Positions 1 to 14,074 of a DNA stretch of 16,929 bases are shown in pieces. Source of the DNA: a virus (Duplodnaviria > Heunggongvirae > Uroviricota > Caudoviricetes). The stretch lies in the IMG/VR virus record IMGVR_UViG_3300028995_000083, positions 1 through 16,929 of that record; one strand, 5' to 3'. Position 1 is the first letter of the stretch. Every line of letters starts with the position of its first letter. Below the pieces are notes generated by a model. The model ran no database searches, had not been told where the DNA came from, and saw only the letters and a program-made list of their open reading frames with translations. A program made the translations under genes and the position numbers.

Positions 1-1053
1 TTACGGGGTAATGCCAACCGCTGCCGCCACTTTGTCGCCACTTGGCAGCGTTGCCAGAGGATTGAAACGGAGCGCCGTTTCCAGATGATCCGGTGCCAGA
101 TGTGCGTAACGCATAGTCATTTTTATATCGTGGTGTCCGAGAATTTTTTGTAAGGCCAGAATGTTTCCACCCGACATCATGAAGTGCGCCGCAAACGTAT
201 GGCGCAGAACGTGTGTGAGTTGACCGCGAGGGAGCACGATAGACGTTTTTTCCATCACGGATAAAAATTGAAAATAGCAGTCTGTGAAGAAATTGAACCC
301 ATCAAGCGCCATGATCTCTTCGTAAAGCTCTTTACTGATAGGGATGCTTCTGTTTTTCTTCCCCTTCGTTCTTACAAAGGTAATTCGGTATTTGGTCACC
401 TGTGAACGAGTAAGATTTACGGCTTCTCGCCAGCGTGCGCCTGTGCTTAAGCATATCTTAACTACCAGTGCCAGAATTGGGTCCTGACGTTTGCAATCAG
501 CCAGTAATTCAACAATCTGCTCATGGGTAAGCCATGCCATCTCTTTTTCTGCGATGGTGAATTTTCGCATGTTCTCCAGTGGGTTCGGATACGACCATTC
601 GCCCAGGCGGGATAGTTCGCTAAAAACACTACTTAGATAGCTTTGCTCCAGGTTAATGGTGACCGGGCTTGCTCCTTTCTTCCATTTCTCGCTGAAGTAG
701 ATCTCACCTGTCAGGCGTTTATCTCGATAGTGGGCAAACATTTTAGAGGTTAGATCAGTTGCAAGGGGATTGCCCAGAGCGTCAACCATCAGCAGCAATT
801 TGTCATAGACATGCTGCCCAGCAGTCAGTGATTTACCATGTAGTTTGAACCATAGCTCAACCACGTCTTTCAGTGTTCGACGATCCACTGATTCACCTAG
901 CCAGGGCTTTGCTTCGGTTTCTTCCATCGTGTGACGCTCAAAAGCCAGTGCTTCGCCTTTGGTGGCGAATTGTTTACGCACACGACGCCCACTACGTCCG
1001 GCGGGGTAACATTCGCAAAGCCATTTTCCTGTGGTGAGTTTTCGTACAGCCAT
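1..1053 (-). CDS. int: Tyrosine integrase (P2/186 type)
   Basis: 350-aa product starting MAVRKLTTGKWLCECYPAGRSGRRVRKQFATKGEALAFE, typical of P2-family integrase N-termini; C-terminal region has an HxxR...Y-type catalytic layout (LRHTFAAHF...HHDIKMTMRYAHL). GGAGGG RBS before the ATG at 1053; the upstream in-frame extension to 1131 lacks an RBS. Confidence 0.9.
   Translation of the reverse strand: MAVRKLTTGKWLCECYPAGRSGRRVRKQFATKGEALAFERHTMEETEAKPWLGESVDRRTLKDVVELWFKLHGKSLTAGQHVYDKLLLMVDALGNPLATDLTSKMFAHYRDKRLTGEIYFSEKWKKGASPVTINLEQSYLSSVFSELSRLGEWSYPNPLENMRKFTIAEKEMAWLTHEQIVELLADCKRQDPILALVVKICLSTGARWREAVNLTRSQVTKYRITFVRTKGKKNRSIPISKELYEEIMALDGFNFFTDCYFQFLSVMEKTSIVLPRGQLTHVLRHTFAAHFMMSGGNILALQKILGHHDIKMTMRYAHLAPDHLETALRFNPLATLPSGDKVAAAVGITP
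19..40 (+). repeat. Candidate attL core (CGCTGCCGCCACTTTGTCGCCA), direct repeat of 14075..14096
   Basis: 21/22 identity with the copy immediately after the ogr stop codon; flanks on both sides of each copy are unrelated. Lies inside the 3' end of int. Confidence 0.55.
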
Positions 1054-1241
1054 AAAAAATGCCCTCCAATAGAGAGCATTTTTACTGTATGTATAACCAG
1101 TGTCAATGTATGAAATCCTGCGACCATACATCTCACTGAAGCCATAATGAAGTAGGCTATTCTTTTTGCTATGTGATCATGTAACTTTTGCGGTTAACCT
1201 GTGGCTCATTTTTATTTTAGGCGCAGATATAAAAGCAAAAG

Positions 1242-1433
1242 TTATCGTGAGTTTTTAGTACAGATTTTTTTGGATTTACTAATAGTTCCATCATTGCAAA
1301 CGAATTTGCCATCAGAGGTACAGTGAGAAACACCTCCCTTTTTCCCTGAGCAGGGATAATTTCTAGCATAGGTAGCTAGTGGGTTTAATAACAAAGAACA
1401 TGACAAAACCACAAAAAATACCTTACCAAGCAT
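1242..1433 (-). CDS. Small secreted or lipoprotein-like cysteine-rich protein (63 aa), putative moron in the cI-int operon
   Basis: GGGAGG RBS 5 nt before the ATG; hydrophobic N-terminal signal-like segment ([23 protein letters not shown]) then a Lys/Cys-rich mature part with 4 Cys; AT-rich relative to int and cI; same strand, between cI and int. Confidence 0.55.
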
Positions 1434-1448
1434 AATTTCCTCCCGGTA

Positions 1449-2024
1449 CTATTTAACATACTTGACTGTTAAACTTATAATTTTACCAATTATTTCAATG
1501 TCTTCTATCTTACATTCAAAGGCTCTGTTTCCACCCTCGACGAAGATTCTTCCACCGGGTAAACGAGTAATGTCACGGATCGTTATTTCGCCATCAATAC
1601 TTATTACCCATTTACCATCACGTATATCATCAAATTCCTTATCACAAATAAATTCAGAATTATTATCTGTGATTACAAAAAGATTCTTGAATGCCGACGG
1701 TAGAAATTCTCTATCGAAAATATAAAAACCGTCTTCACACAAGGCCCCATCAGATAATACATATTTAGCAACTTCCATAGTATTTGTATTACCTGAAGTT
1801 TGCTTTGAACCATGCCCGGTTGTGAGCCAATTAAGCGAGGTGCCTGTTTCAAGGGCGCACTGGATTACCCATTCTGCTGGGAATGAGTCACGCATGTAGC
1901 GTGTGGCGAGTGTACTTTTAGAGATTCCTAAATGATCGCACAACGCCTGTCGAGTCTTGAATCCATAAGCTTCTACCATGCGCTCTATGGCGCCTCGTCC
2001 GCCTTTCTCCAAATTCATGGTCAC
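1449..2024 (-). CDS. cI: CI-type immunity repressor (186 CI-like, HTH N-terminal domain)
   Basis: 191 aa, close to the size of phage 186 CI; N-terminal HTH-like segment (FKTRQALCDHLGISKSTLATRYMRD); located between int and the divergent early operon; GGAG RBS. Confidence 0.8.
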   Translation of the reverse strand: MTMNLEKGGRGAIERMVEAYGFKTRQALCDHLGISKSTLATRYMRDSFPAEWVIQCALETGTSLNWLTTGHGSKQTSGNTNTMEVAKYVLSDGALCEDGFYIFDREFLPSAFKNLFVITDNNSEFICDKEFDDIRDGKWVISIDGEITIRDITRLPGGRIFVEGGNRAFECKIEDIEIIGKIISLTVKYVK

Positions 2025-3721: not shown

Positions 3722-3948
3722 TGGCTGATGCAATGGATCTCGTACAGCAGCGCGTTGAAGAAGAACGCCAACGCCATATCCGTGCTGCCCGTGCCAAAAC
3801 GCCGGGCGTGTCCCGCGTGCTTTGCATTGATTGTGAAGCGCCAATTCCGCCAGCACGCCGCCGTGCCATTCCGGGTGTGCAGCTTTGCATTACCTGCCAG
3901 GAAATCGCAGAGCTGAAAGGCAAACATTACAACGGAGGTGCTGTATGA
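3721..3948 (+). CDS. TraR/DksA-family C4 zinc-finger protein
   Basis: 75 aa with CIDC-x17-CITC spacing (C-x2-C ... C-x2-C), characteristic of phage TraR/DksA-like zinc fingers; translationally coupled to neighbours. Confidence 0.8.
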   Translation: MADAMDLVQQRVEEERQRHIRAARAKTPGVSRVLCIDCEAPIPPARRRAIPGVQLCITCQEIAELKGKHYNGGAV

Positions 3949-4802
3949 GCACCATCCTGAAATGGGCGGGAAATAAAACTGCCATAATGTCCGAACTGAA
4001 AAAACATCTTCCTGCTGGCCCGCGACTGGTTGAACCTTTCGCGGGTTCCTGTGCTGTGATGATGGAGACGGATTATCCCAGCTATCTGGTTGCGGATATT
4101 AATCCTGATTTAATCAACCTCTATAAAAAGGTTGCCGCTGATTGTGAATCGTTTATATCTCGCGCCAGAGTTTTATTTGAGATCGCAAACAGGGAGGTGG
4201 CTTATTACAACATAAGGCAGGAGTTTAATTACTCAACTGAAATTACTGATTTCATGAAAGCGGTATATTTCCTGTATCTCAATCGTCACGGTTACCGTGG
4301 TTTATGTCGCTATAACAAGAGCGGGCATTTCAACATTCCCTACGGTAATTATAAAAATCCGTATTTCCCTGAAAAAGAAATTCGCGCATTTGCAGAAAAG
4401 GCCCAGCGAGCAACGTTTATCTGCGCCAGCTTTGATGAAACGCTGGCGATGTTGAAGGCGGGGGATGTGGTGTATTGCGATCCGCCGTATGACGGTACGT
4501 TTTCCGGCTATCACACTGACGGCTTCACTGAAGATGACCAGTATCACCTGGCATCTGTTCTTGAACATCGGTCATCAGAAGGACATCCGGTCATTGTTTC
4601 TAACAGTGACACATCCCTGATCCGTTCGCTGTATCGCAATTTTACTCACCACTACATCAAGGCAAAACGCAGCATCGGTGTGGCAGCTGGCGAGGGTAAA
4701 TCAGCAACAGAAATCATTGCTGTTTCCGGGCCGCGCTGCTGGGTGGGATTTGATTATTCGCGTGGCGTGGATAGTTCTGCCGTGTACGGAGTACGTGCAT
4801 GA
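3945..4802 (+). CDS. dam: DNA adenine methyltransferase (Dam-like, N6-adenine MTase)
   Basis: 285 aa from ATG 3945 (GGAGGTG RBS). Motif I-like EPFAGSCAV near the N-terminus and catalytic DPPY ([12 protein letters not shown]); N-terminus [11 protein letters not shown] is typical of Dam-family enzymes. Confidence 0.9.
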
Positions 4803-7213
4803 GTCATGCCGATATGAACAACTGCTGCGGCTTTAACGAAGCTGCCGCATCGTTCTCATGGAACAGCTCGAAAAAGGCCATTAACCCTTATCTGGACCCG
4901 GTGGAAGTTGCGCCGGTTTCTACGCTTTCAAACCTGATCACTCTGTACGCTGCCGATAACGAGCAGGAACAGCTGCGCCGTGAGGCGCTGAGTGATCAGG
5001 TCTGGGAGCGTTATTTCTTTAATGAATCCCGTGATCCTGTCCAGCGCGAAATGGAACAGGATAAGCTCATTAGTCGGGCAAAGCTGGCGCATGAGCAGCA
5101 GCGTTTTAATCCGGATATGGTCATTCTGGCGGACGTCAACGCCCAGCCTTCCCATATCAGCAAGCCGCTGATGCAACGTATTGAATACTTCAGCAGCCTG
5201 GGCAGGCCAAAGGCTTATTCCCGCTATTTACGTGAGACGATTAAGCCATGTCTGGAACGACTGGAGCATGTACGCGACAGTCAGCTATCTGCATCTTTTC
5301 GCTTTATGGCAAGCCATGAAGGGCTGGACGGCCTGCTGATCCTGCCTGAAATGAGTCAGGATCAGGTGAAACGCCTGTCCACCCTGGTAGCTGCGCATAT
5401 GAGTATGTGCCTTGATGCCGCTTGTGGCGATTTGTATGCCACCGATGACGTTAAGCCAGAAGAAATCCGCAATACATGGGAAAGGGTGGCAGCGGAAACC
5501 CTGCGTCTGGATGTCATCCCGCCTGCGTTTGAGCAACTCCGTCGGAAAAGAAACCGCCGTAAACCCGTGCCCTATGAACTCATTCCGGGTTCGCTGGCGC
5601 GTATGTTGTGCGCCGACTGGTGGTATCGGAAATTATGGAAGATGCGTTGCGAATGGCGGGAAGAGCAGTTGCGTGCTGTCTGCCTTGTCAGCAAAAAAGC
5701 ATCTCCCTATGTCAGCTATGAAGCCGTGTTGCATAAACGTGAGCAGCGCCGTAAGTCGCTGGAGTTTTTCCGTTCTCATGAACTGGTGAACGAAGACGGC
5801 GACACGCTAGACATGGAGGATGTGGTAAACGCCAGCAGCAGCAACCCTGCGCATCGCCGCAATGAGATGATGGCCTGTGTTAAAGGTCTGGAGCTTATCG
5901 CGGAAATGCGCGGTGACTGCGCCGTTTTCTACACCATCACCTGTCCGTCACGTTTCCATTCCACGCTAAATAACGGCAGGCCCAACCCGACCTGGACAAA
6001 TGCGACGGTAAGACAAAGCAGCGATTATCTGGTCGGTATGTTTGCTGCATTTCGTAAGGCGATGCACAAAGCCGGGTTGCGCTGGTATGGCGTGCGGGTG
6101 GCTGAGCCGCATCACGACGGCACAGTTCACTGGCACCTGTTGTGTTTCATGCGCAAAAAAGACCGCCGCGCCATTACAGCATTGTTGCGTAAGTTTGCTA
6201 TCCGTGAAGACCGCGAGGAGCTGGGCAATAACACGGGGCCGCGCTTTAAGTCTGAGCTGATTAACCCGCGCAAAGGAACGCCGACAAGCTACATAGCGAA
6301 ATACATCAGTAAGAACATTGACGGGCGTGGTCTGGCTGGCGAGATCAGCAAGGAAACGGGTAAATCTCTGCGTGATAACGCTGAATACGTGAATGCCTGG
6401 GCGTCTTTGCATCGTGTTCAGCAATTCCGCTTCTTTGGCATTCCGGGGCGTCAGGCTTACCGTGAACTGCGATTGCTGGCTGGTCAGGCGGCAAGGCAAA
6501 AGGGGGACAAAAAAGCAGGTGCGCCGGTACTGGATAACCCGCGCCTTGATGCCATCCTGGCTGCTGCTGATGCTGGTTGTTTTGCCACCTACATCATGAA
6601 GCAGGGCGGCGTACTGGTTCCCCGTAAATATCACCTCATCAGAACCGCTTATGAAATCAACGAAGAGCCGACCGCCTATGGCGATCACGGCATTCGTATT
6701 TATGGCATCTGGTCACCCATTGCAGAGGGCAAGATCTGCACTCATGCAGTGAAGTGGAAAATGGTTCGTAAAGCCGTTGACGTTCAGGAGGCGGCAGCCG
6801 ACCAGGGCGCTTGCGCCCCTTGGACTCGTGGCAATAACTGTCCCCTTGCTGAAAATTTGTACCAACAAGGGAAAGACAAATCAGCTGATGGGGATACCAG
6901 AACGGATATTACCCGCATGGATGACAAGGAATTGCACGATTACCTGCACAGTATGAACAAAAAAGAGCGCCGGGAACTGGCTGCAAGGTTACGCCTGGTG
7001 AAACCGAAACGGCGTAAAGACTACAAACAGCGAATTACAGACCATCAGCGACAGCAGCTCGTCTATGAACTGAAGTCCAGAGGATTTGATGGCAGCGAGA
7101 AAGAGGTCGATTTACTCCTTCGCGGCGGCAGTATTCCGTCAGGAGCAGGCCTGCGTATCTTCTATCGGAACCAGCGTTTGCAGGAAGATGATAAGTGGCG
7201 AAACCTGTATTAA
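4799..7213 (+). CDS. Replication initiation endonuclease (P2/186 gene-A-like rolling-circle initiator)
   Basis: 804 aa; HUH-type motif ([10 protein letters not shown]) and a paired-tyrosine segment (YIAKYISKN) consistent with P2 gpA-family proteins; start overlaps the dam stop (ATGA). Confidence 0.9.
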
Positions 7214-7565: not shown

Positions 7566-7799
7566 ATGCGCATTGAAATAATGATCGATAAAGAGCAGAA
7601 GATTAGCCAGTCTACCCTGGACGCCCTTGAATCCGAGCTTTACCGCAATCTGCGTCCTCTGTATCCCAAAATGGTAATTCGTATCCGCAAAGGTAGCTCT
7701 AACGGTGTGGAACTGACCGGATTGCAACTGGACGAAGAAAGAAAACAAGTGATGAAAATTATGCAGAAGGTGTGGGAAGACGACAGCTGGCTGCATTAA
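7566..7799 (+). CDS. dinI: DinI-family protein (DNA-damage-inducible protein I-like)
   Basis: 77 aa; MRIEIMIDKEQKISQSTLDALESELYRNL...VWEDDSWLH parallels E. coli DinI in length and pattern (MRIEV...ETWE..DW); GAGGTG RBS; in the LexA-controlled transcription unit. Confidence 0.85.
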   Translation: MRIEIMIDKEQKISQSTLDALESELYRNLRPLYPKMVIRIRKGSSNGVELTGLQLDEERKQVMKIMQKVWEDDSWLH

Positions 7800-8069
7800 G
7801 AAACGTTGCTGGCGTCTGAACTTGCTTCTGGCGTCAGCAAGGTTGAACAACGAGCTATGCGAGGCGTTAGTGTCAATTTGTTACCTTAACCACTATATAT
7901 GCCAGGAAATTAACAGTTCTTAAGAAACAGCTTGCATGATCGAGCGCATTGAACTTAAGTTTAAGTAACGCAATCAACAGATGATATTGTTGTCTAAATT
8001 TTAAAGATAATCTGTTGAGGTTGTAGGCGTCGGAGTGTAGACTTCCGCGCCATGTGAAAAGGGGGAGTT

Positions 8070-8285
8070 ATGTCAAGCATCGCCGCATTTAGCCTGGGTA
8101 ACCCAGTTGAACGTCTGGCAAGGGTTCTTAAAGAGAACCAGGACAAACTCAATCTTAGTAAAGATGGTTTTGTGTCCGTAGACTTGTCTAACAAAAGAGC
8201 AATGGATGCCATCAAGGCACAGATGGATAAGCTTGAAGGCATCAAAACGAGCACTGTAAAAGAGAAAACTAATAGAACCAGATAA
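8070..8285 (+). CDS. Hypothetical small soluble protein (71 aa), first gene of cargo operon
   Basis: Strong RBS (AAAGGGGGAG) before ATG 8070; Lys-rich, no TM segment; stop overlaps the start of the next gene (TAATG); AT-rich. Confidence 0.6.
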   Translation: MSSIAAFSLGNPVERLARVLKENQDKLNLSKDGFVSVDLSNKRAMDAIKAQMDKLEGIKTSTVKEKTNRTR

Positions 8286-9127
8286 TGGCAACATTACTTT
8301 TAGCAGTGATTTTGGTTAGTGGTTTTATTTATGTAAACCTATCACTTTCAACAAGATACCGATATAAGCGTTCCAACGGCTGGGACGCTTATTTTTTTGT
8401 GGCTGCCTGGGGTATCGTTTTTTTTCTCCTTGGCGGTTTTTTCACCTTTATTTTGAACGTCAGCGGAGGGTTTCGTTGGCTGGCTAATGCCTTGAATCTA
8501 ACACCTGACAGTTTTAATGGCATGTTGTCTTCATCGAAAGACAAACTTCAAAGAATAAATGAAATCAAACAGATAGCATGGGTTATGATTTCAATTGTCC
8601 TCGCTGCGATTTCAGGTTTTGGAAATAAGTTACGCACATCACGTGGAGATCGTCGTTGGGATGCCTTAGCTAAAGCTGTGGGTAATAACGCTTTCGAATC
8701 ATTACTCATGGAAGCGTCCGCAAGACAGTTTCCGATCATAGCAACTCTGTCGTCTCGCAAAATCTATGTTGGTCTTGTTACTTGTCCGGCGTTAGAAAAC
8801 GGGCTTTCAGAGCACCTTGAACTTCTCCCGATGTTAAGCGGATATCGGGATAAAGATGATCTAACGATTAGTATCACGACTAACTATCACCAACATTATC
8901 TTGATAGTGGTGTGATAAGTGGAATGTCTCGGCTTAATATCGAAGATTTCCGTGTGCTCATACCAAAAGATGAGGTTGAAACAATTTCGTTTTTTGATAC
9001 TGAGACATATAACAAATTTAAAGAAAATGAAGCCAGGGATAGAAAGAACTGTCGAAAGATTGATAGTAAAAGTGCATCTTCGCGCAGCAAGCGTGCAGCA
9101 GATGCTGAGTCAAATGATCGTGCATGA
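8285..9127 (+). CDS. Hypothetical membrane protein (280 aa; three predicted N-terminal TM helices plus about 165-aa charged cytoplasmic domain)
   Basis: Hydrophobic segments at about residues 2-19, 36-57 and 96-112, then a soluble Lys/Arg/Asp-rich domain; translationally coupled to the 8070 gene; AT-rich; no family recognised. Confidence 0.7.
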   Translation: MATLLLAVILVSGFIYVNLSLSTRYRYKRSNGWDAYFFVAAWGIVFFLLGGFFTFILNVSGGFRWLANALNLTPDSFNGMLSSSKDKLQRINEIKQIAWVMISIVLAAISGFGNKLRTSRGDRRWDALAKAVGNNAFESLLMEASARQFPIIATLSSRKIYVGLVTCPALENGLSEHLELLPMLSGYRDKDDLTISITTNYHQHYLDSGVISGMSRLNIEDFRVLIPKDEVETISFFDTETYNKFKENEARDRKNCRKIDSKSASSRSKRAADAESNDRA

Positions 9128-9175
9128 CTATGCTGCATGAGATCGCATGATCGTTTGAGGATCGTTTTTGCTAGG

Positions 9176-9199
9176 GCCCGCCAGAACTGGCGGGCTTTC
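9176..9199 (+). terminator. Candidate intrinsic terminator after the two-gene cargo operon
   Basis: GC-rich hairpin GCCCGCCA-gaac-TGGCGGGC followed by only TTT; about 50 nt after the 9127 stop. The short T tract makes this tentative. Confidence 0.4.
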
Positions 9200-9244
9200 G
9201 CGTAGATCATGCACCTGCATGAAAACTACTACATAAAGCGGGCA

Positions 9245-9257
9245 GGCGTGGCGGGGA
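9245..9257 (+). other. Possible cos-site remnant (GGCGTGGCGGGGA)
   Basis: Isolated GC-rich block inside AT-rich DNA; from memory it matches the first 13 nt of the 19-nt cohesive end of 186/P2-family phages (GGCG[T/A]GGCGGGGAAAGCA...), after which similarity is lost. Recollection not verified. Confidence 0.35.
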
Positions 9258-9364
9258 TACGAGCGCGCGCAACAGTGTAACAATCTGGATCTAATGTGAT
9301 ATAGTTACTGTAAATATTATTAACTATTCTTATATGCATTATTAAATATTTTAATGGAGCGTTT

Positions 9365-11038
9365 ATGGAAAAATATCAAGATGAGGAATATGTAGATGAT
9401 TTAACTGAGCGTGTTTTTCTCATTAAGCAACAACTGGAAGCGGGAAAACTAAAAATAGCTCATCATCTTGTAGAAGGTTTTATTGAAAGTTTTAAAAGAA
9501 TAAGGCTGCGACAGGATGGTAAAGTTGACCCTTCTACTGTTGATGGCAGAATAAGGGCTATGGGAGCAGCGGTTAATCACTTTTTAGAAAGAGAAGATAT
9601 AAAAAACAAATACTCTATTCAGGACTTGCAAAGTTCTTACTTTAATATTCTTTTTAGTAATTTTGGCGAGTTGTTTTATCTGATGAAAAAAACTAATGCA
9701 ACGCCACATAAAGCATCAAGTTTTTTTTCTCAACAAGAAGAATATGTTAAGCAAATAGAAGATATTTTTCCTGAGTTATATAATCAGGTAATAGAGTTTT
9801 GGCAGGTAACATCCGATATTGGTGTAATACATTTGCAGGATGGTTCTCAGTTTAAAGCTAATTTTTCTGGTGACTTATTTCCTGCATTTGATGAGAATGC
9901 TGTCTCTATTGCAGGGTTGTATGTTGATACTATTTCACTTCCATGTCCTATATTAAGAGTCGGTCGTCTCTATGAAAAGTCAGATAAGGCTGAGTTTACA
10001 AGGATACTTCTGAAGCATGTCCTAACATGTATGACATATAAAGAAGTAGCGCTTGAAGATATAGAGCCAGCAATAGTATTAATTTTGCCGGATAGAAGAG
10101 ATTTTGAAACTGAGAGCAAAAAAAATTTGATGAGTTTTTGTGAGCCTTATGCTCTGACTCATGCGCAATATCTCTATGATCGACGGTTCGAAAGCTACGA
10201 TGAATTTCGAGATTTTAGTTATTCGATGAATGATATTGATGCTGTTCTTAAAAATATTAAGAGAGCAGATAGACTTATTTTTGATACAGCATGGGGGCTA
10301 AATCCAAAAACTCAATTAGAAAAACTACTATCTGATAAAAAAAGAATATCACGTAATGTTGTTGGTGATCATGCTGGAATGGAGGTTTTCCTTTCCTGCA
10401 TTGGAAGAATGCCGCAAGCCTATTCAGCAAAATGTAATGCACAAGAACTTGGTAGTACTCCATATATAAATGCAGACACATCTTGGCTCTATTATACTTG
10501 GCTTATTGAGTACGAATCTCTTAATTTTGATGTCAATGATATTGAACTAAAAAATTTGCATATGGTTCATGCGTTATCTGCTGGTATGCAAGATGGTTTT
10601 TCATGGTTAGGAAATGTACCGGTCAATAAAATAATTGAGTTGAGACGTAACAAATTGATGGAGGATGTAAGATCCATCTTATCAAATGGTGTTGACTCTT
10701 TAATCAATTCTTCGGCAGAGAGCTTTTCGAGGACAACGCAAAAAGTAATTGATAATGTAGACCGGGCTTTTATTGAACATCAAAGGATTCTTGCAAAAGC
10801 CCAAAAAGAGAAATTGAGAATTTACGGACTAGATGTCCTACCATGTATCGCAAATGGTGCTATAGCAATTGCTGGAGCGCTGACTGGCAATACTACTTTA
10901 ACGGCGTTAAGTGCAGGCCTTGGAGTAATAGGTATTCCGAGTATTAGTGATATCAAATCTAAATTTAAGCAGAGGCAAGAGAAGCTTGATGCCTATCAAC
11001 GTTCTGTTACAGGTATACTCTTTAGCCATAAATCTTAA
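9365..11038 (+). CDS. Hypothetical 557-aa protein with C-terminal glycine-zipper-like hydrophobic segment; candidate defense / abortive-infection effector
   Basis: Long uninterrupted AT-rich ORF with TGGAG RBS; no Walker A, no RT YxDD, no HTH recognised; hydrophobic Gly/Ala-rich stretch at residues about 486-524 (LDVLPCIANGAIAIAGALTGNTTLTALSAGLGVIGIPSI); PD...ESK string at residues 242-252; flanked by terminator-like hairpins. Confidence 0.75.
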   Translation: MEKYQDEEYVDDLTERVFLIKQQLEAGKLKIAHHLVEGFIESFKRIRLRQDGKVDPSTVDGRIRAMGAAVNHFLEREDIKNKYSIQDLQSSYFNILFSNFGELFYLMKKTNATPHKASSFFSQQEEYVKQIEDIFPELYNQVIEFWQVTSDIGVIHLQDGSQFKANFSGDLFPAFDENAVSIAGLYVDTISLPCPILRVGRLYEKSDKAEFTRILLKHVLTCMTYKEVALEDIEPAIVLILPDRRDFETESKKNLMSFCEPYALTHAQYLYDRRFESYDEFRDFSYSMNDIDAVLKNIKRADRLIFDTAWGLNPKTQLEKLLSDKKRISRNVVGDHAGMEVFLSCIGRMPQAYSAKCNAQELGSTPYINADTSWLYYTWLIEYESLNFDVNDIELKNLHMVHALSAGMQDGFSWLGNVPVNKIIELRRNKLMEDVRSILSNGVDSLINSSAESFSRTTQKVIDNVDRAFIEHQRILAKAQKEKLRIYGLDVLPCIANGAIAIAGALTGNTTLTALSAGLGVIGIPSISDIKSKFKQRQEKLDAYQRSVTGILFSHKS

Positions 11039-11043
11039 TGTAG

Positions 11044-11074
11044 AGGGCCGAGGTATTCGGCCCTTAGTTTTATA
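11044..11074 (+). terminator. Intrinsic terminator after the 557-aa gene
   Basis: Hairpin AGGGCCG-aggtatt-CGGCCCT followed by T-rich TAGTTTTATAT, 6 nt after the stop codon. Confidence 0.6.
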
Positions 11075-11220
11075 TGAAACTGTATGGCATGAATTTTATT
11101 ATGTCATCTTTGAGCCATTTATTGAGTTCTTCTATTCTGTTTTGTAGCGGTATCAATTCATTACGCATAAAAACCTTACTAGCCTTCTCCACATCCCCAA
11201 ATCCCCCAACATTATTCGGC

Positions 11221-12186
11221 ATTATCCCCATCATTTGCGGCGGCACTCGGTGTGCTGCCATCATGTCATCCCGGCTCACGTTCTTGATAGGTCTTGTGGT
11301 TACTGCACTGGCGGGTGTGGCGCTGGTTGTCTGGAAATACTGGCAGCCCATCACCGCATTTCTCGGTGGCGTGGTGGAAGGATTCAAAGCGGCGGCAGGT
11401 CCTGTCAGTGCCGCGTTCGAACCGCTTAAGCCTGTGTTCCAGTGGATTGGCGACAAAGTACAGGCGCTGTGGGGCTGGTTTACTGATCTGCTGACGCCCG
11501 TTAAGTCGACCTCTGCCGAACTGCAGAGTGCAGCGGCAATGGGGCGACGATTCGGGGAGGCTCTGGCGGAAGGGCTGAATATGGTCATGCATCCGCTGGA
11601 CTCCCTGAAATCCGGCGTTTCCTGGTTGCTGGAGAAACTTGGCATTGTCAGTAAAGAGGCCGCAAAGGCGAAACTGCCGGAAAGCGTGACGCGTCAGCAA
11701 CCTGCGACGGTGAATGCAGACGGTAAAGTGATGATGCCATCGGGTGGTTTTCCGTCATGGGGATATGGCTTTGCGGGGATGTATGACAGCGGCGGGTATA
11801 TCCCGCGCGGGCAGTTTGGCATCGTCGGTGAAAACGGGCCGGAAATTGTTAACGGCCCGGCAAATGTGACCAGCCGGAGAAATACAGCTGCACTGGCTGC
11901 CGTTGTTGCCGGAATGATGGGTGTTGCTGCTACGCCAGCAGAGCTTCCACCGTTGCACCCTTTGGCACTTCCCGCGAAAGGCGGTGAAGCGATGGTGAGT
12001 CGTGCAGCCACTGTGCTGCCCGTTCAACGGATTGAGGCACCGATGCAGATCATCATTCAGACGCAGCCAGGACAAAGTGCGCAGGATATTGCGCGGGAGG
12101 TGGCCCGCCAGCTTGATGAACGTGAACGCAGGCTGAAGGCAAAAGCCAGGAGTAACTACAGCGATCAGGGGGGATACGACGCATGA
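11221..12186 (+). pseudogene. 5'-truncated tail tape-measure gene (P2 gpT / 186 G-like), C-terminal fragment only
   Basis: Translation from about residue 50 of the 11074 ORF onward is Ala/Gly-rich with tape-measure character (AFLGGVVEGFKAAAGPVSAAFEPLKPVFQWIGDKVQALWGW...) and is followed by U and D as in the P2 FETUD operon; upstream 150 nt is AT-rich with no RBS; a full tape measure would be about 800 aa. 5' boundary approximate. Confidence 0.7.
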
Positions 12187-12668: not shown

Positions 12669-13765
12669 ATTTCAGCTCTGAACTGCTTAACAAAGGCAAC
12701 AAAACTCCGGCATTCAGCATCAGTATTGAAGGCAGGGATATCACCACTGTGCTGGACAACCGCCTGATGGGGCTGACGCTGACGGATAACCGGGGCTTTG
12801 AAGCGGACCAGCTTGATCTGGAGCTGGACGACGCCGATGGAAAAATCGTGCTGCCGCGCCGTGGGGCTGTCATTACGCTGGCGCTGGGCTGGAAGGGACA
12901 GCCGCTTTTCCCGAAAGGGGCATTCACGGTGGACGAGATTGAACACACTGGCGCACCGGATCGCCTGACTATCCGGGCGCGAAGTGCTGATTTTCGTGAA
13001 ACGCTGAATACCCGCCGTGAAAAGTCGTGGCACAAGACCACCGTTGGGGAAGTGGTGAAGGAAATAGCTGCGCGGCACAAACTGAAGATGGCATTGGGTG
13101 AAGACTTGTCGGATAAACTCGTGGAGCATATAGACCAGACTAATGAGAGTGACGGCAGTTTTTTGATGCGGCTGGCGCGCCAGTACGGTGCTATTGCGTC
13201 GGTGAAAAATGGCAATCTGTTATTCATCCGGCAGGGGCAGGGTAAAAGCGCCAGCGGTAAACCACTACCGGTGATCACTATCACACGCAAGGACGGCGAC
13301 AGTCACCGCTTTACCCTGGCAGATCGCGGAGCTTACACGGGCGTCATTGCCAGCTGGTTGCATACCCGCGAACCCGCGAAGAAAGAAAGCACCACGGTGA
13401 AGCGTAAGCGCAGGACTAAGAAGCAGAAGAAAGAGCCGGAAGCGAAGCAGGGCGATTACCTGGTGGGTACGGATGAAAACGTGCTGGTACTTAATCGCAC
13501 TTATGCCAACCGGAGCAACGCCGAACGGGCAGCGAAAATGCAGTGGGAACGCCTGCAACGCGGCGTTGCATCATTCTCGCTACAACTGGCGGAAGGGCGG
13601 GCAGATCTCTACACAGAAATGCCTGTGAAGGTCAGTGGCTTTAAACAGCCGATAGATGATGCGGAATGGACCATTACGACTCTGACGCATACCGTCAGCC
13701 CGGATTACGGTTTTACGACCAGTCTGGAGCTTGAAGTGAGGATTGATGATTTCGAAATGGAATGA
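12665..13765 (+). CDS. D: Tail protein D (P2 gpD-like, late control gene D family)
   Basis: 366 aa; GTG start overlapping the U stop, GGGAGGG RBS; size, position (last late gene before ogr) and composition consistent with Phage_GPD. Confidence 0.85.
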   Translation: MNFSSELLNKGNKTPAFSISIEGRDITTVLDNRLMGLTLTDNRGFEADQLDLELDDADGKIVLPRRGAVITLALGWKGQPLFPKGAFTVDEIEHTGAPDRLTIRARSADFRETLNTRREKSWHKTTVGEVVKEIAARHKLKMALGEDLSDKLVEHIDQTNESDGSFLMRLARQYGAIASVKNGNLLFIRQGQGKSASGKPLPVITITRKDGDSHRFTLADRGAYTGVIASWLHTREPAKKESTTVKRKRRTKKQKKEPEAKQGDYLVGTDENVLVLNRTYANRSNAERAAKMQWERLQRGVASFSLQLAEGRADLYTEMPVKVSGFKQPIDDAEWTITTLTHTVSPDYGFTTSLELEVRIDDFEME

Positions 13766-13855
13766 TTCTTCGCAATGGAGAACTTTTAAGTTTGCAAAAT
13801 GGAATAATGCGGTATCATTATTGTGAATTTAGCAAAAATGGGGAGAACTCGAAAA

Positions 13856-14074
13856 ATGATGATTTGCCCACTGTGTGGAAGTGCCGCCCATACTCGCAGC
13901 AGTTTTCAGGTATCTTCATTGACCAAAGAGCGTTACAACCAGTGCCAGAACATTAACTGCAGCCATACTTTTGTTACCCATGAAACTTTTGTTCGTTCGA
14001 TTGCAACGCCAAAAGAGTCAAATCCGGTTCAGCCGCATCCAATGAAATCAGGACAGGTGGCGCTCTCTCTTTGA
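13856..14074 (+). CDS. ogr: Ogr/Delta-family zinc-finger late transcription activator
   Basis: 72 aa from ATG 13856, the same length as P2 Ogr; CPLC...CQNINC matches the Ogr C-x2-C-x22-C-x4-C zinc-binding pattern (compare P2 Ogr CPLCQHAAH...YHQCQNVNC). Confidence 0.85.
   Translation: MMICPLCGSAAHTRSSFQVSSLTKERYNQCQNINCSHTFVTHETFVRSIATPKESNPVQPHPMKSGQVALSL

What the first reader, a model, noticed from the sequence alone, without database searches (positions are those of the whole stretch)
9365..11038. Orphan 557-aa protein with glycine-zipper-like C-terminal hydrophobic segment and a PD...ExK-like string
Large AT-rich ORF with its own RBS and a good downstream intrinsic terminator, separated from the upstream operon by about 240 bp containing a hairpin. 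It has no P-loop, no reverse-transcriptase motif and no obvious HTH. The C-terminus carries a Gly/Ala-rich hydrophobic stretch (residues about 486-524, nt about 10820..10936) resembling glycine-zipper membrane-insertion segments of pore-forming effectors. Residues 242-252 (LPDRRDFETESKK, nt about 10088..10120) could be a short PD-(D/E)xK nuclease motif, but this is speculative. It sits where the capsid and packaging genes should be.
Basis: inference. Interest (0 to 1): 0.8.

Follow-up and report, generated by a model that had tools for sequence, protein, structure and literature searches.

The report
Membrane-tethered DitB-like prophage defence candidate
This 557-residue gene is not an orphan: it belongs to a large uncharacterised family distantly related to DitB of the Aditi anti-phage system, it carries its own membrane-type hairpin, and it sits as optional cargo in the known defence hotspot of P2-like prophages, so it is a good untested candidate for a one-gene phage-defence system.

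Summary
The ORF, its RBS, its terminator and the 237-bp spacer with a hairpin are all real.

- **Not an orphan.** The family has 762 clusters (50% identity) across Proteobacteria and Bacteroidota.
- **Related to DitB.** The core (about aa 84-472) is a remote homolog of DitB, one of the two proteins of the validated Aditi system, whose mechanism is unknown. Support: PADLOC E 7e-10, hhalign 95.6% with E 1e-8, and the same order of secondary-structure elements in two independent AlphaFold models. No DitA partner is present.
- **C-terminal module is conserved family-wide.** It comprises basic flanks, two short Gly/Ala-rich hydrophobic helices, an amphipathic basic helix and an SPxGLLF end.
- **No nuclease motif.** Only the P and an acidic residue of the "PD...ExK" string recur. 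No nuclease or phage structural fold was found.
- **Not replacing capsid genes.** It occupies the gpA-portal hotspot, just right of a cos-like site. The capsid genes were lost in a separate deletion at about 11289.
- **Optional cargo.** It is present in 17 of 5426 complete E. coli genomes. Elsewhere it sits beside Old, Gabija, a type IIG restriction-modification enzyme and Mokosh-like genes.

Most likely it is a stand-alone, membrane-associated anti-phage protein. That function is inferred, not shown.

The parts
9176..9195 (+). GC-rich hairpin in the spacer. It is the counterpart of phage 186 terminator t95b and ends the upstream early/accessory transcript.
   Evidence: Sequence read. Colinear match to the 186 right end (CGCCAGAGCTGGCG). 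The 186 annotation of t95b is.
9245..9263 (.). cos-like site. The first 13 nt (GGCGTGGCGGGGA) are identical to the phage 186 cohesive end, and the preceding 9207-9244 matches the 186 right end.
   Evidence: There is a single match in the window against 0.04 expected by chance. The same 13-mer lies 70-160 nt upstream of the homolog in 12 other loci.
9277..9305 (+). Sigma-70 promoter-like site (GTAACA, 17-nt spacer, TATAGT, with an extended -10 TG) at the start of the AT-rich cassette.
   Evidence: This is a consensus match only and is not above the shuffle expectation for the region.
9356..9359 (+). Shine-Dalgarno GGAG, 5 nt upstream of the ATG.
9365..11038 (+). CDS of 557 aa (WP_024235280 in RefSeq, annotated as a hypothetical protein).
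9365..9613 (+). N-terminal helical region (aa 1-83). It has no counterpart in DitB.
   Evidence: AlphaFold model. The hhalign match to DitB begins at aa 84.
9614..10780 (+). DitB-like core (aa 84 to about 472): a helical domain around a small four-stranded sheet (strands at 164-167, 189-192, 238-240 and 365-367).
   Evidence: PADLOC DitB model, E 7.3e-10, aa 195-452. hhalign A5 against A4: probability 95.6%, E 1.1e-8, target 84-379 to DitB 10-272. The order of secondary-structure elements matches in the two AlphaFold models.
10826..10939 (+). Hydrophobic Gly/Ala-rich helical hairpin (aa 488-525) flanked on both sides by Lys/Arg-rich segments. It is a putative membrane-inserting or membrane-anchoring element.
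   Evidence: Kyte-Doolittle profile. Family-wide column statistics. Tails of 46 representatives.
10940..11035 (+). Basic amphipathic helix (aa 527-545) followed by the conserved terminal motif S-P-x-G-L-L-F (aa 547-553).
11043..11075 (+). Intrinsic-terminator-like hairpin plus T-run. It fills the 31-nt gap to the stop codon of the convergent portal gene.
11070..11289 (-). Context only: remnant of portal gene Q (3' end). At about 11286-11289 it is joined by a deletion to the C-terminal part of the tape-measure gene.
   Evidence: blastn against an intact prophage and against strain PE15. Pfam Phage_portal. PHROG tape-measure hits for aa 72-370 of ORF 11074-12186.

Best explanation
The gene is accessory cargo (a "moron": own promoter-like site, RBS and terminator, low GC) of a P2/186-like prophage. 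It is inserted in the cos-proximal gpA-to-portal hotspot, where such phages keep anti-phage genes.

**Product architecture**
- An N-terminal helical region (aa 1-83).
- A core (aa 84 to about 472) homologous to DitB of the two-gene Aditi defence system.
- A C-terminal module absent from DitB: a long helix, a short hydrophobic Gly/Ala-rich helical hairpin with basic flanks on both sides, an amphipathic basic helix, and an SPxGLLF tail.
- No signal peptide was noticed on reading the N-terminus (this was not tested with a predictor).

**Proposed mechanism**
- It acts alone, since no DitA and no other conserved partner is present.
- It protects the lysogen against other phages.
- The DitB-like core, with its invariant polar cluster (Q89, Y92, H156, K164, D188/T189, R348, S373/W374, R427, R436), recognises or acts on a phage-derived cue.
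- The hairpin places the protein at the inner membrane, or on activation inserts or oligomerises in it. That would stop the infection by loss of membrane integrity or by blocking an early step.

**What is shown and what is inferred**
- Shown: gene anatomy, family size, DitB homology, absence of DitA, conservation of the C-terminal module, and hotspot or defence-island context.
- Inferred: anti-phage function (about 0.65), membrane association (about 0.6), and the hairpin as the killing effector (about 0.3).
For: **DitB homology**
- The PADLOC DitB model matches at E 7.3e-10, and several distant family members match the same model region.
- The profile-profile comparison of a diverse family alignment with a DitB alignment built on the verified S. 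kuerlensis protein gives probability 95.6%, E 1.1e-8 over 254 columns.
- Positions invariant or nearly so in each family coincide in that alignment: Q89/Q14, Y92/Y17, F145-W146/F43-W44, P195/P95, P242/P142, Q351/Q242, P366/P257.
- Independent AlphaFold models (pLDDT 84 and 89) show the same order of strands and helices.

**C-terminal module**
- It is conserved in 73 members that are only 22-44% identical to the target.
- In 26 of 46 representatives the hairpin reaches a Kyte-Doolittle mean of at least 1.6.

**Optional cargo**
- The flanking prophage DNA is found in 1281 of 5426 complete E. coli genomes; the gene is found in 17.
- It occurs with or without orf71/orf280, or after a DUF2971 gene.

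**Position and neighbours**
- In 13 of 14 IMG/VR loci it lies directly upstream of, and convergent with, the portal gene. This holds even for the Serratia homolog at 46% identity.
- The gpA-gpQ region is the published P2 defence hotspot (PMC9122126; PMC13586616).
- Outside prophages its immediate neighbours are an Old nuclease, a type IIG restriction-modification enzyme, a MkoA-like helicase, an SMC/LmuB-like ATPase and Gabija in Tn7-like cargo.
- It also lies in integrase islands.

**No competing assignment**
- No phage structural, housekeeping or enzyme fold was found in PDB or BFVD.
Against: - No experiment exists for this protein. Rousset et al. list it only as "hypothetical" in their hotspot table.
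- Aditi's own mechanism is unknown, so the homology transfers a role, not a mechanism.
- The hydrophobic segments are short (about 18 and 14 residues) and borderline in hydropathy. Many homologs carry E, Q or D inside them, and AlphaFold confidence there is only 62-71. The hairpin could be a buried oligomerisation element rather than a membrane element. No dedicated transmembrane predictor was available.
- Defence-island association was judged from about 40 loci, without a genome-wide statistic.
- With the shallow alignment A1, the hhalign probability for DitB was only 9-29%.
Confidence: 0.55

Rival explanations
1. Membrane-anchored exclusion protein. The hairpin is only an anchor. The DitB-like core is the active part and works at the inner membrane on incoming phage DNA or on the injection machinery, giving non-abortive superinfection exclusion, as with other prophage inner-membrane exclusion proteins.
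For: - The hairpin segments are too short for classic membrane spans and have basic flanks on both sides, which fits a monotopic or re-entrant anchor.
- The core carries many invariant polar residues, suggesting a binding or catalytic site.
- The neighbouring hotspot slot in phage 186 holds Orf97, which is annotated as blocking 186 infection.
Against: - The family is also common in chromosomal defence islands and in Tn7-like cargo of bacteria without a P2 context. There, general defence is the more typical role than exclusion of one phage type.
- The strict conservation of small residues within the hairpin and of the SPxGLLF tail suggests more than a passive anchor.
Confidence: 0.2
2. Accessory gene with a non-defence role: lysogenic conversion or host fitness, a counter-defence or anti-satellite function, or a toxin-like selfish element that merely shares the hotspot.
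For: - P2 hotspots also carry non-defence cargo such as plasmid-stability genes and cytolethal distending toxin (PMC9122126).
- Only 15-32% of unknown P2 hotspot proteins are predicted to be antiviral by machine-learning tools (PMC13586616).
- There is no functional test.
Against: - It is homologous to a component of an experimentally verified defence system.
- It is repeatedly an immediate neighbour of known defence genes in unrelated mobile elements.
- It has no cognate antitoxin-like partner.
Confidence: 0.17
3. PD-(D/E)xK-type nuclease using D243, E250 and K252.
For: A P-D dipeptide at the end of strand beta-3 is fairly conserved: P242 in 65 of 73 members and an acidic residue at 243 in 55 of 73.
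Against: - E250 and K252 fall in a variable loop with no conserved acidic or lysine residue.
- No Pfam or PDB profile hit was found.
- In DitB the aligned segment is ILPxR, with no acidic residue after the proline.
Confidence: 0.03
4. A phage morphogenesis or packaging function, suggested by the position next to cos and the portal gene.
For: The gene lies between the cos-like site and portal gene Q in many P2-like phages.
Against: - It is absent from about 99% of related E. coli prophages that share the flanks, and from P2 and 186 themselves.
- It is present in Tn7-like and integrase islands that have no virion genes.
- It has no similarity to viral structural models in BFVD.
Confidence: 0.03

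Closest known systems
DitB of the Aditi defence system (Millman et al. 2022; S. kuerlensis DitA+DitB verified in B. subtilis)
   Same: - The core domain is homologous (PADLOC E 7.3e-10; hhalign 95.6%, E 1.1e-8).
- The order of strands and helices in the AlphaFold models is the same.
- Invariant Q, Y, FW, P, Q and P positions coincide.
- Neither protein has a Pfam domain, a solved structure or a known mechanism.
- Both are defence-associated.
   Different: - DitB is about 365 aa and works with DitA (DUF5677, 483 aa). Here there is no DitA in the window or in 43 related loci.
- The target adds about 83 N-terminal and about 85 C-terminal residues, including a hydrophobic hairpin that neither DitA nor DitB has.
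- Identity to DitB is below 20%.
- DitB's H80, H90 and D93 are not kept in the target.
- The target family was found mainly in Proteobacteria. The DitB homologs retrieved here come from Firmicutes genera such as Paenibacillus, Bacillus and Pelosinus.
Cargo of the P2 gpA-gpQ hotspot (old, tin, the DUF4238 single-gene system and others; Rousset et al. 2022)
   Same: - It occupies the same cos-proximal variable slot.
- It has moron-like organisation.
- Presence is sporadic.
- It exists as a single-gene module.
   Different: - There is no sequence relation to any hotspot system modelled in PADLOC.
- It lies to the right of the cos-like site, between cos and Q. P2's old and tin lie on the other side of cos.
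Defence effectors that act through transmembrane or hydrophobic helices, and glycine-zipper pore formers
   Same: A soluble sensor-like body is fused to a short C-terminal hydrophobic, small-residue-rich helical pair.
   Different: - There is no GxxxGxxxG repeat.
- The segments are shorter than normal membrane spans.
- No homology to any such family was detected.
- Membrane activity is untested.
LeoBC of Eleos (bacterial dynamin-like defence protein)
   Same: There is a weak PADLOC match (E 0.0046) of aa 430-540 to LeoBC model positions 392-509. This is a long-helix, hydrophobic-hairpin, helix arrangement. From my own recollection, not tested here, it resembles the membrane paddle of bacterial dynamin-like proteins.
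   Different: - There is no GTPase domain.
- The match is near the noise level and covers only the C-terminal module.
- It is treated as a lead, not as homology.

Membership tests
Aditi system (DitA + DitB) | A protein homologous to DitB | tested here: met
   PADLOC DitB model, E 7.3e-10. hhalign A5 against A4: 95.6%, E 1.1e-8. Matching secondary-structure order in two AlphaFold models. The homology is remote and covers aa 84 to about 472 only.
Aditi system (DitA + DitB) | An adjacent DitA gene (DUF5677 protein) in the same operon | tested here: not met
   DitA carries DUF5677. The window's neighbours have no DitA or DUF5677 hit. tblastn and phmmer with DitA find nothing in the window or in 43 homolog loci. 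hhalign of the target family against DitA is negative.
Aditi system (DitA + DitB) | Demonstrated anti-phage activity | not testable with these tools
   This needs plaque and infection assays.
PD-(D/E)xK nuclease superfamily | Conserved D...(D/E)xK catalytic residues on the core beta-strands | tested here: not met
   Position 243 is acidic in 55 of 73 members, but E250 and K252 are not conserved.
PD-(D/E)xK nuclease superfamily | Restriction-endonuclease-like alpha-beta-beta-beta-alpha-beta fold | tested here: not met
Glycine-zipper membrane-inserting segments | Repeated (G/A/S)xxx(G/A/S) pattern in a hydrophobic helix, conserved across homologs | tested here: inconclusive
   G498, small residues at 499 and 503-505, and G508 are conserved, as are small residues at 513 and 516-519. 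There is no strict GxxxGxxxG, and polar residues occur at 501, 520 and 523 in many members.
Glycine-zipper membrane-inserting segments | Actual membrane insertion or pore formation | not testable with these tools
   Only hydropathy is available (maximum 1.62; at least 1.6 in 26 of 46 representatives). No transmembrane predictor or experiment was available.
P2-like gpA-gpQ hotspot cargo (moron) | Located between replication gene A and portal gene Q, variable among otherwise similar prophages | tested here: met
   The hotspot is defined in PMC9122126. The protein is listed there as "hypothetical".
Phage structural or packaging proteins | Sequence or fold similarity to virion or terminase components, and universal presence in related phages | tested here: not met
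   No PHROG, Pfam, BFVD or PDB similarity. Present in 17 of the 1281 genomes that share the flanks.

The most novel reading that the evidence does not exclude
This protein represents a widespread family (about 760 clusters at 50% identity) of one-gene anti-phage immunity proteins. In it the Aditi DitB fold, which has no solved or recognisable relative, is fused directly to a latent membrane-inserting hairpin. If so, the DitB fold would be a phage sensor or switch that can be coupled either to DitA or to a built-in membrane effector. That would give the first mechanistic handle on Aditi.
Probability: 0.3. Interest if true: 0.7.

Novelty: new variant of a known kind. Interest (0 to 1): 0.5.

Why it matters
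Aditi is a validated defence system for which no domain, structure or mechanism is known. A large sister family that has dropped DitA and gained a built-in membrane-type module gives a testable hypothesis about what the DitB fold does and how its signal is executed.

It would also add a compact (1.9-kb) single-gene system to the P2 hotspot repertoire. About one fifth of such loci still have no recognised defence gene (PMC13586616).

The practical test is easy. The native cassette at about 9120-11075 carries its own regulatory region and occurs in E. coli itself.

Tried and rejected
- **Family libraries.** Pfam, NCBIfam and PHROGs gave no hits for the target.
- **PDB sequence profiles.** The searches with A1, A5 and the DitB alignment A4 returned only noise.
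- **Shallow DitB comparisons.** Single DitB sequences, or the shallow alignment A1, gave only weak hhalign scores. Only the diverse alignment A5 gave a confident result.
- **Weak PADLOC matches.** LeoBC (E 0.005) and Avs1c (E 0.03 to 2e-4 in some members) are kept only as leads.
- **DitA.** There is no relation to the target and no homolog in any locus.
- **orf280 as a partner.** Rejected as an obligate partner, because the target occurs without it in PE15, p10A and several IMG/VR loci.
- **orf280 against 186 Orf97.** No similarity.
- **N-terminal extensions.** Some family members carry extensions of about 190 aa, which gave no Pfam or PDB hit.
- **Literature.** No paper names the protein. The new P4 systems in PMC13586616 (Bandua, Aernus, Toga, Reve, Crouga, Hailong) have different domain content.
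- **HEPN reading.** An R-x4-H string at R213-H218 was considered, but R213 is not conserved.
Full report
**1. Observation**

The ORF at 9365..11038 (+) is real and encodes 557 aa.
- A GGAG lies 5 nt upstream of the ATG.
- A 10-bp-stem hairpin with a T-run follows at 11043-11065.
- GC drops to 35-37% across the ORF, against 49-58% in the flanking phage genes.
- The spacer 9128-9364 is 237 bp and contains a GC-rich hairpin at about 9176-9195.
- The C-terminal hydrophobic stretch consists of two segments, 488-508 and 510-528, with a best 19-residue Kyte-Doolittle mean of 1.62.
- There is no Walker A motif and no Pfam, NCBIfam or PHROG hit.

**2. The surroundings: a decayed P2/186-like prophage**

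The window encodes the following, in order:
- integrase (1-1131, minus strand);
- 186-type CI repressor (1449-2024, minus strand);
- CII, Fil, DUF5347, DUF2732 and a TraR-type zinc-finger protein;
- Dam methylase (3885-4802);
- replication protein gpA (4799-7213);
- a 62-aa ORF and DinI (7566-7799);
- orf71 and a 280-aa membrane protein (phrog_3630);
- the target;
- a short remnant of portal gene Q on the minus strand;
- the C-terminal part of the tape-measure gene, then gpU and gpD;
- a host aspartate:alanine antiporter.

Compared with an intact relative (E. coli 210221272), the window is colinear up to 11289. There it jumps to tape-measure sequence. The capsid, packaging and most tail genes were therefore lost in a deletion to the right of the target. 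The target does not replace them.

In intact prophages the target lies between DinI, or other cargo, and the convergent portal gene.

**3. The spacer contains the phage cos region**

Window 9179-9257 is colinear with the right end of phage 186. That 13-mer occurs once in the window, against 0.04 expected by chance.

The same 13-mer lies 70-160 nt upstream of the homolog in 12 other loci. These include the Serratia prophage, whose protein is 46% identical, and a P4-integrase/Ogr island. The AT-rich cassette thus starts about 25 nt to the right of the cos-like site and ends 31 nt before the portal stop codon.

The block 9120-11289 is shared at 99% or more with strains PE15 and p10A, whereas 7871-9119 (orf71 and orf280) is absent there. 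The target therefore travels as a separate module together with the cos-proximal DNA.

**4. Family**

The protein is not an orphan.
- A word-indexed search found 212 clusters. Those listed are about 555 aa and all annotated as hypothetical. They come from Enterobacterales, Aeromonas, Aquitalea, Ca. Electronema and many metagenomes.
- An exhaustive HMM search found 762 representatives at 50% identity with E of 1e-3 or better, and 266 with E of 1e-30 or better.
- The species-representative genome set adds Burkholderiales, Pseudomonas, Hyphomicrobium, Balneolaceae and Chitinophagaceae.
- Most members match from end to end.
- A minority carry N-terminal extensions of about 190-300 aa with no recognisable domain. 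One includes an XRE-type HTH-like stretch.

**5. Relationship to DitB of Aditi**

- PADLOC's DitB model matches aa 195-452 at E 7.3e-10. Distant members hit the same part of that model.
- I took the sequence of the experimentally verified S. kuerlensis DitB from the supplement of Millman et al., collected its homologs and aligned them (A4).
- Against the shallow target alignment A1, hhalign gave only 9-29% probability.
- Against a diverse alignment of 73 representatives (A5, 22-44% identity to the target), it gave 95.6% probability and E 1.1e-8 over 254 columns, mapping target 84-379 to DitB 10-272.
- Positions invariant or nearly so in each family coincide: Q89/Q14, Y92/Y17, F145-W146/F43-W44, P195/P95, P242/P142, Q351/Q242 and P366/P257.
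- The wider family reads LPDP where DitB reads DDP. The clade containing the target has LPCP.
- Independent AlphaFold models agree in element order. The target model has pLDDT 84.3 and pTM 0.77. The DitB model has pLDDT 88.7 and pTM 0.87. Strands 164-167, 189-192, 238-240 and 365-367 correspond to DitB strands 64-68, 89-93, 138-141 and 256-259, and the intervening helices also correspond.

I conclude that the core is a remote DitB homolog.

Aditi's partner DitA is a DUF5677 protein. It has no counterpart in the window or in 43 loci that carry family members. Neither DitA nor DitB has a hydrophobic hairpin. Aditi is described as two proteins with no recognisable domain, and reviews up to 2026 still list its mechanism as unknown.

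**6. Fold**

**7. The C-terminal module**

Across the 73 diverse members the following elements are conserved:
- a basic stretch, K-K-x-K-F-x-G-x-D (482-490);
- a hydrophobic, small-residue segment at 491-508 (G498, small at 499, A/S/G at 503-505, G508);
- a turn (N509, P510);
- a second hydrophobic segment at 511-524;
- P525 followed by K/R-D/E-L;
- a basic amphipathic helix;
- S547-P-x-G550-L-L-F553.

The hairpin reaches a Kyte-Doolittle mean of at least 1.6 in 26 of 46 representatives. The segments are short, at about 18 and 14 residues. Some members have E at 501 or Q/E/D at 520 and 523.

This fits a re-entrant or latent membrane-inserting hairpin with both flanks in the cytoplasm better than two classic membrane spans. 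It could also be a buried oligomerisation element. A weak PADLOC match to the Eleos dynamin-like protein LeoBC (E 0.005, aa 430-540) is noted only as a lead.

**8. The nuclease idea**

P242 is kept in 65 of 73 members, and position 243 is acidic in 55 of 73. E250 and K252 lie in a variable loop. No nuclease fold or profile was detected. The PD-(D/E)xK reading is not supported.

The conserved polar residues of the family lie elsewhere: Q89, Y92, H156, K164, Y186, D188, T189, K217, H266, R348, Q351, T372, S373, W374, R427, R436, N464 and H472. They suggest a defined binding or catalytic site of unknown nature.

**9. Genomic context**

In E. coli:
- The flanking prophage DNA occurs in 1281 of 5426 complete genomes, but the gene in only 17, always at 99% identity or more.
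- It is found directly after DinI (PE15), after orf71 and orf280 (210221272), or after a DUF2971 gene (p10A).

In other prophages:
- In 13 of 14 IMG/VR loci the homolog is immediately upstream of, and convergent with, the portal gene. In 11 of them gpA lies upstream.
- The Serratia homolog occupies the same slot, next to an AAA_15/AAA_21 ATPase pair.

This gpA-gpQ region is the published P2 anti-phage hotspot (PMC9122126; PMC13586616). Table S5A of Rousset et al. lists WP_024235280 there as "hypothetical", and nothing in the text read here indicates that it was curated or tested.

Outside prophages, the immediate neighbours are:
- a P2 Old-family nuclease (Candidimonas, E 1e-193);
- a type IIG restriction-modification enzyme (Comamonadaceae);
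- a MkoA-like helicase (Burkholderiales);
- an SMC/LmuB-like ATPase (Pseudomonas);
- Gabija plus a UvrD/HNH pair inside Tn7-like cargo (Aquitalea).

Other copies lie in integrase islands at mutS (Aeromonas) and in a P4-integrase/Ogr/DUF2971 island. No gene is a constant neighbour.

**10. Interpretation**

What is shown:
- a self-contained cassette;
- optional cargo of a defence hotspot and of defence islands;
- a DitB-homologous core;
- no DitA;
- a conserved hydrophobic C-terminal module;
- no structural or enzymatic fold match.

What is inferred:
- The protein is a stand-alone anti-phage or phage-exclusion factor (about 0.65).
- It associates with the inner membrane through the hairpin (about 0.6).
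- The hairpin executes the response by perturbing the membrane after the core senses infection (about 0.3).
- The main alternative is an anchored core that acts on incoming phage components.

**11. Novelty and verdict**

This is best filed as a new variant of a known kind: a DitB-like protein turned into a single-gene, hairpin-bearing architecture. Neither PADLOC nor the literature searched describes it.

It is moderately interesting. Candidate hotspot genes are common. This one, however, is widespread, easy to test in E. coli, and could open up the mechanism of Aditi.

Noticed in passing
window 9207-9263: A cos-like site. 9232-9257 matches the phage 186 right end plus the first 13 nt of its cohesive end (GGCGTGGCGGGGA at 9245-9257). 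The remaining 6 nt differ from both 186 and P2. The target and its homologs consistently lie between this site and the portal gene, which is the opposite side of cos from P2's old and tin.
   Followed up: partly
window 11070-12186: A deletion joint at about 11286-11289 fuses the last 73 or so codons of portal gene Q (minus strand) to the C-terminal third of the tape-measure gene. ORF 11074-12186 (+) is a chimeric reading frame whose aa 72-370 are tape measure. The prophage is therefore defective.
   Followed up: yes
window 7871-9119 (orf71 at 8070-8285; orf280 at 8285-9127): A discrete 1.25-kb cassette that is absent from otherwise identical prophages (PE15, p10A). On reading the sequence, orf280 (phrog_3630) looks like a membrane protein with roughly three N-terminal hydrophobic segments; the computed maximum Kyte-Doolittle mean is 2.29 at aa 39-57. 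In Rousset et al. Table S5A the pair recurs with different third genes (SieB, PIN_12). Homologs at 33-34% identity also precede target homologs in three IMG/VR loci. It may be a separate exclusion module.
   Followed up: partly
L001 1306-2982 (E. coli 210221272), compared with window 1132-1448: The intact relative carries a DUF4041 gene between the integrase and CI genes. The window lacks it. This is a second variable slot in the same prophage type.
   Followed up: no
L003 4101-5219; L008 4575-6389: DUF2971 genes recur next to target homologs. There is one upstream in E. coli p10A and two in a P4-integrase/Ogr island of an unrelated genome.
   Followed up: no
L026, L040, L041 (also L014): These P2-like elements have an 890-aa primase at the position of gpA (the neighbour scan found DUF927, Toprim_3 and Zn_Ribbon_Prim domains in two loci). 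They still have the P2-type portal right after the target homolog. L014 has the primase, but no portal was found within the flank.
   Followed up: no
proteins P0225, P0233, P0239, P0240, P0245, P0246, P0252, P0261, P0265, P0196 (aa 1 to about 190): A subfamily of the target family carries a conserved N-terminal domain of about 190 aa, with invariant residues including W12, W17, W51, E70, Y80 and R111 (numbered on the first sequence, P0239). It has no Pfam or PDB match. P0217 instead has an extension of about 300 aa that includes an XRE-type HTH-like stretch.
   Followed up: partly
window 9944-9946 (codon C194): Residue 194 is Cys in all 32 members of the target's own clade (motif LPCP) but Asp in 78% of the wider family (LPDP). 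It aligns with the invariant D94 of DitB (DDP). This is a clade-specific swap at a conserved position.
   Followed up: no
E. coli 13P477T: NZ_CP019273 (chromosome), NZ_CP019275 (37.4 kb), NZ_CP019279 (22.6 kb): One strain carries three copies of the gene: one chromosomal and two on small replicons. The 37-kb replicon is also filed as a phage record. The two small-replicon copies differ in length by 1-2 nt, which may reflect frameshifts or assembly errors.
   Followed up: no
window 13762-13956: A 64-aa ORF sits after gpD, where P2 has ogr. It gave no Ogr_Delta or any other Pfam or NCBIfam hit.
   Followed up: no
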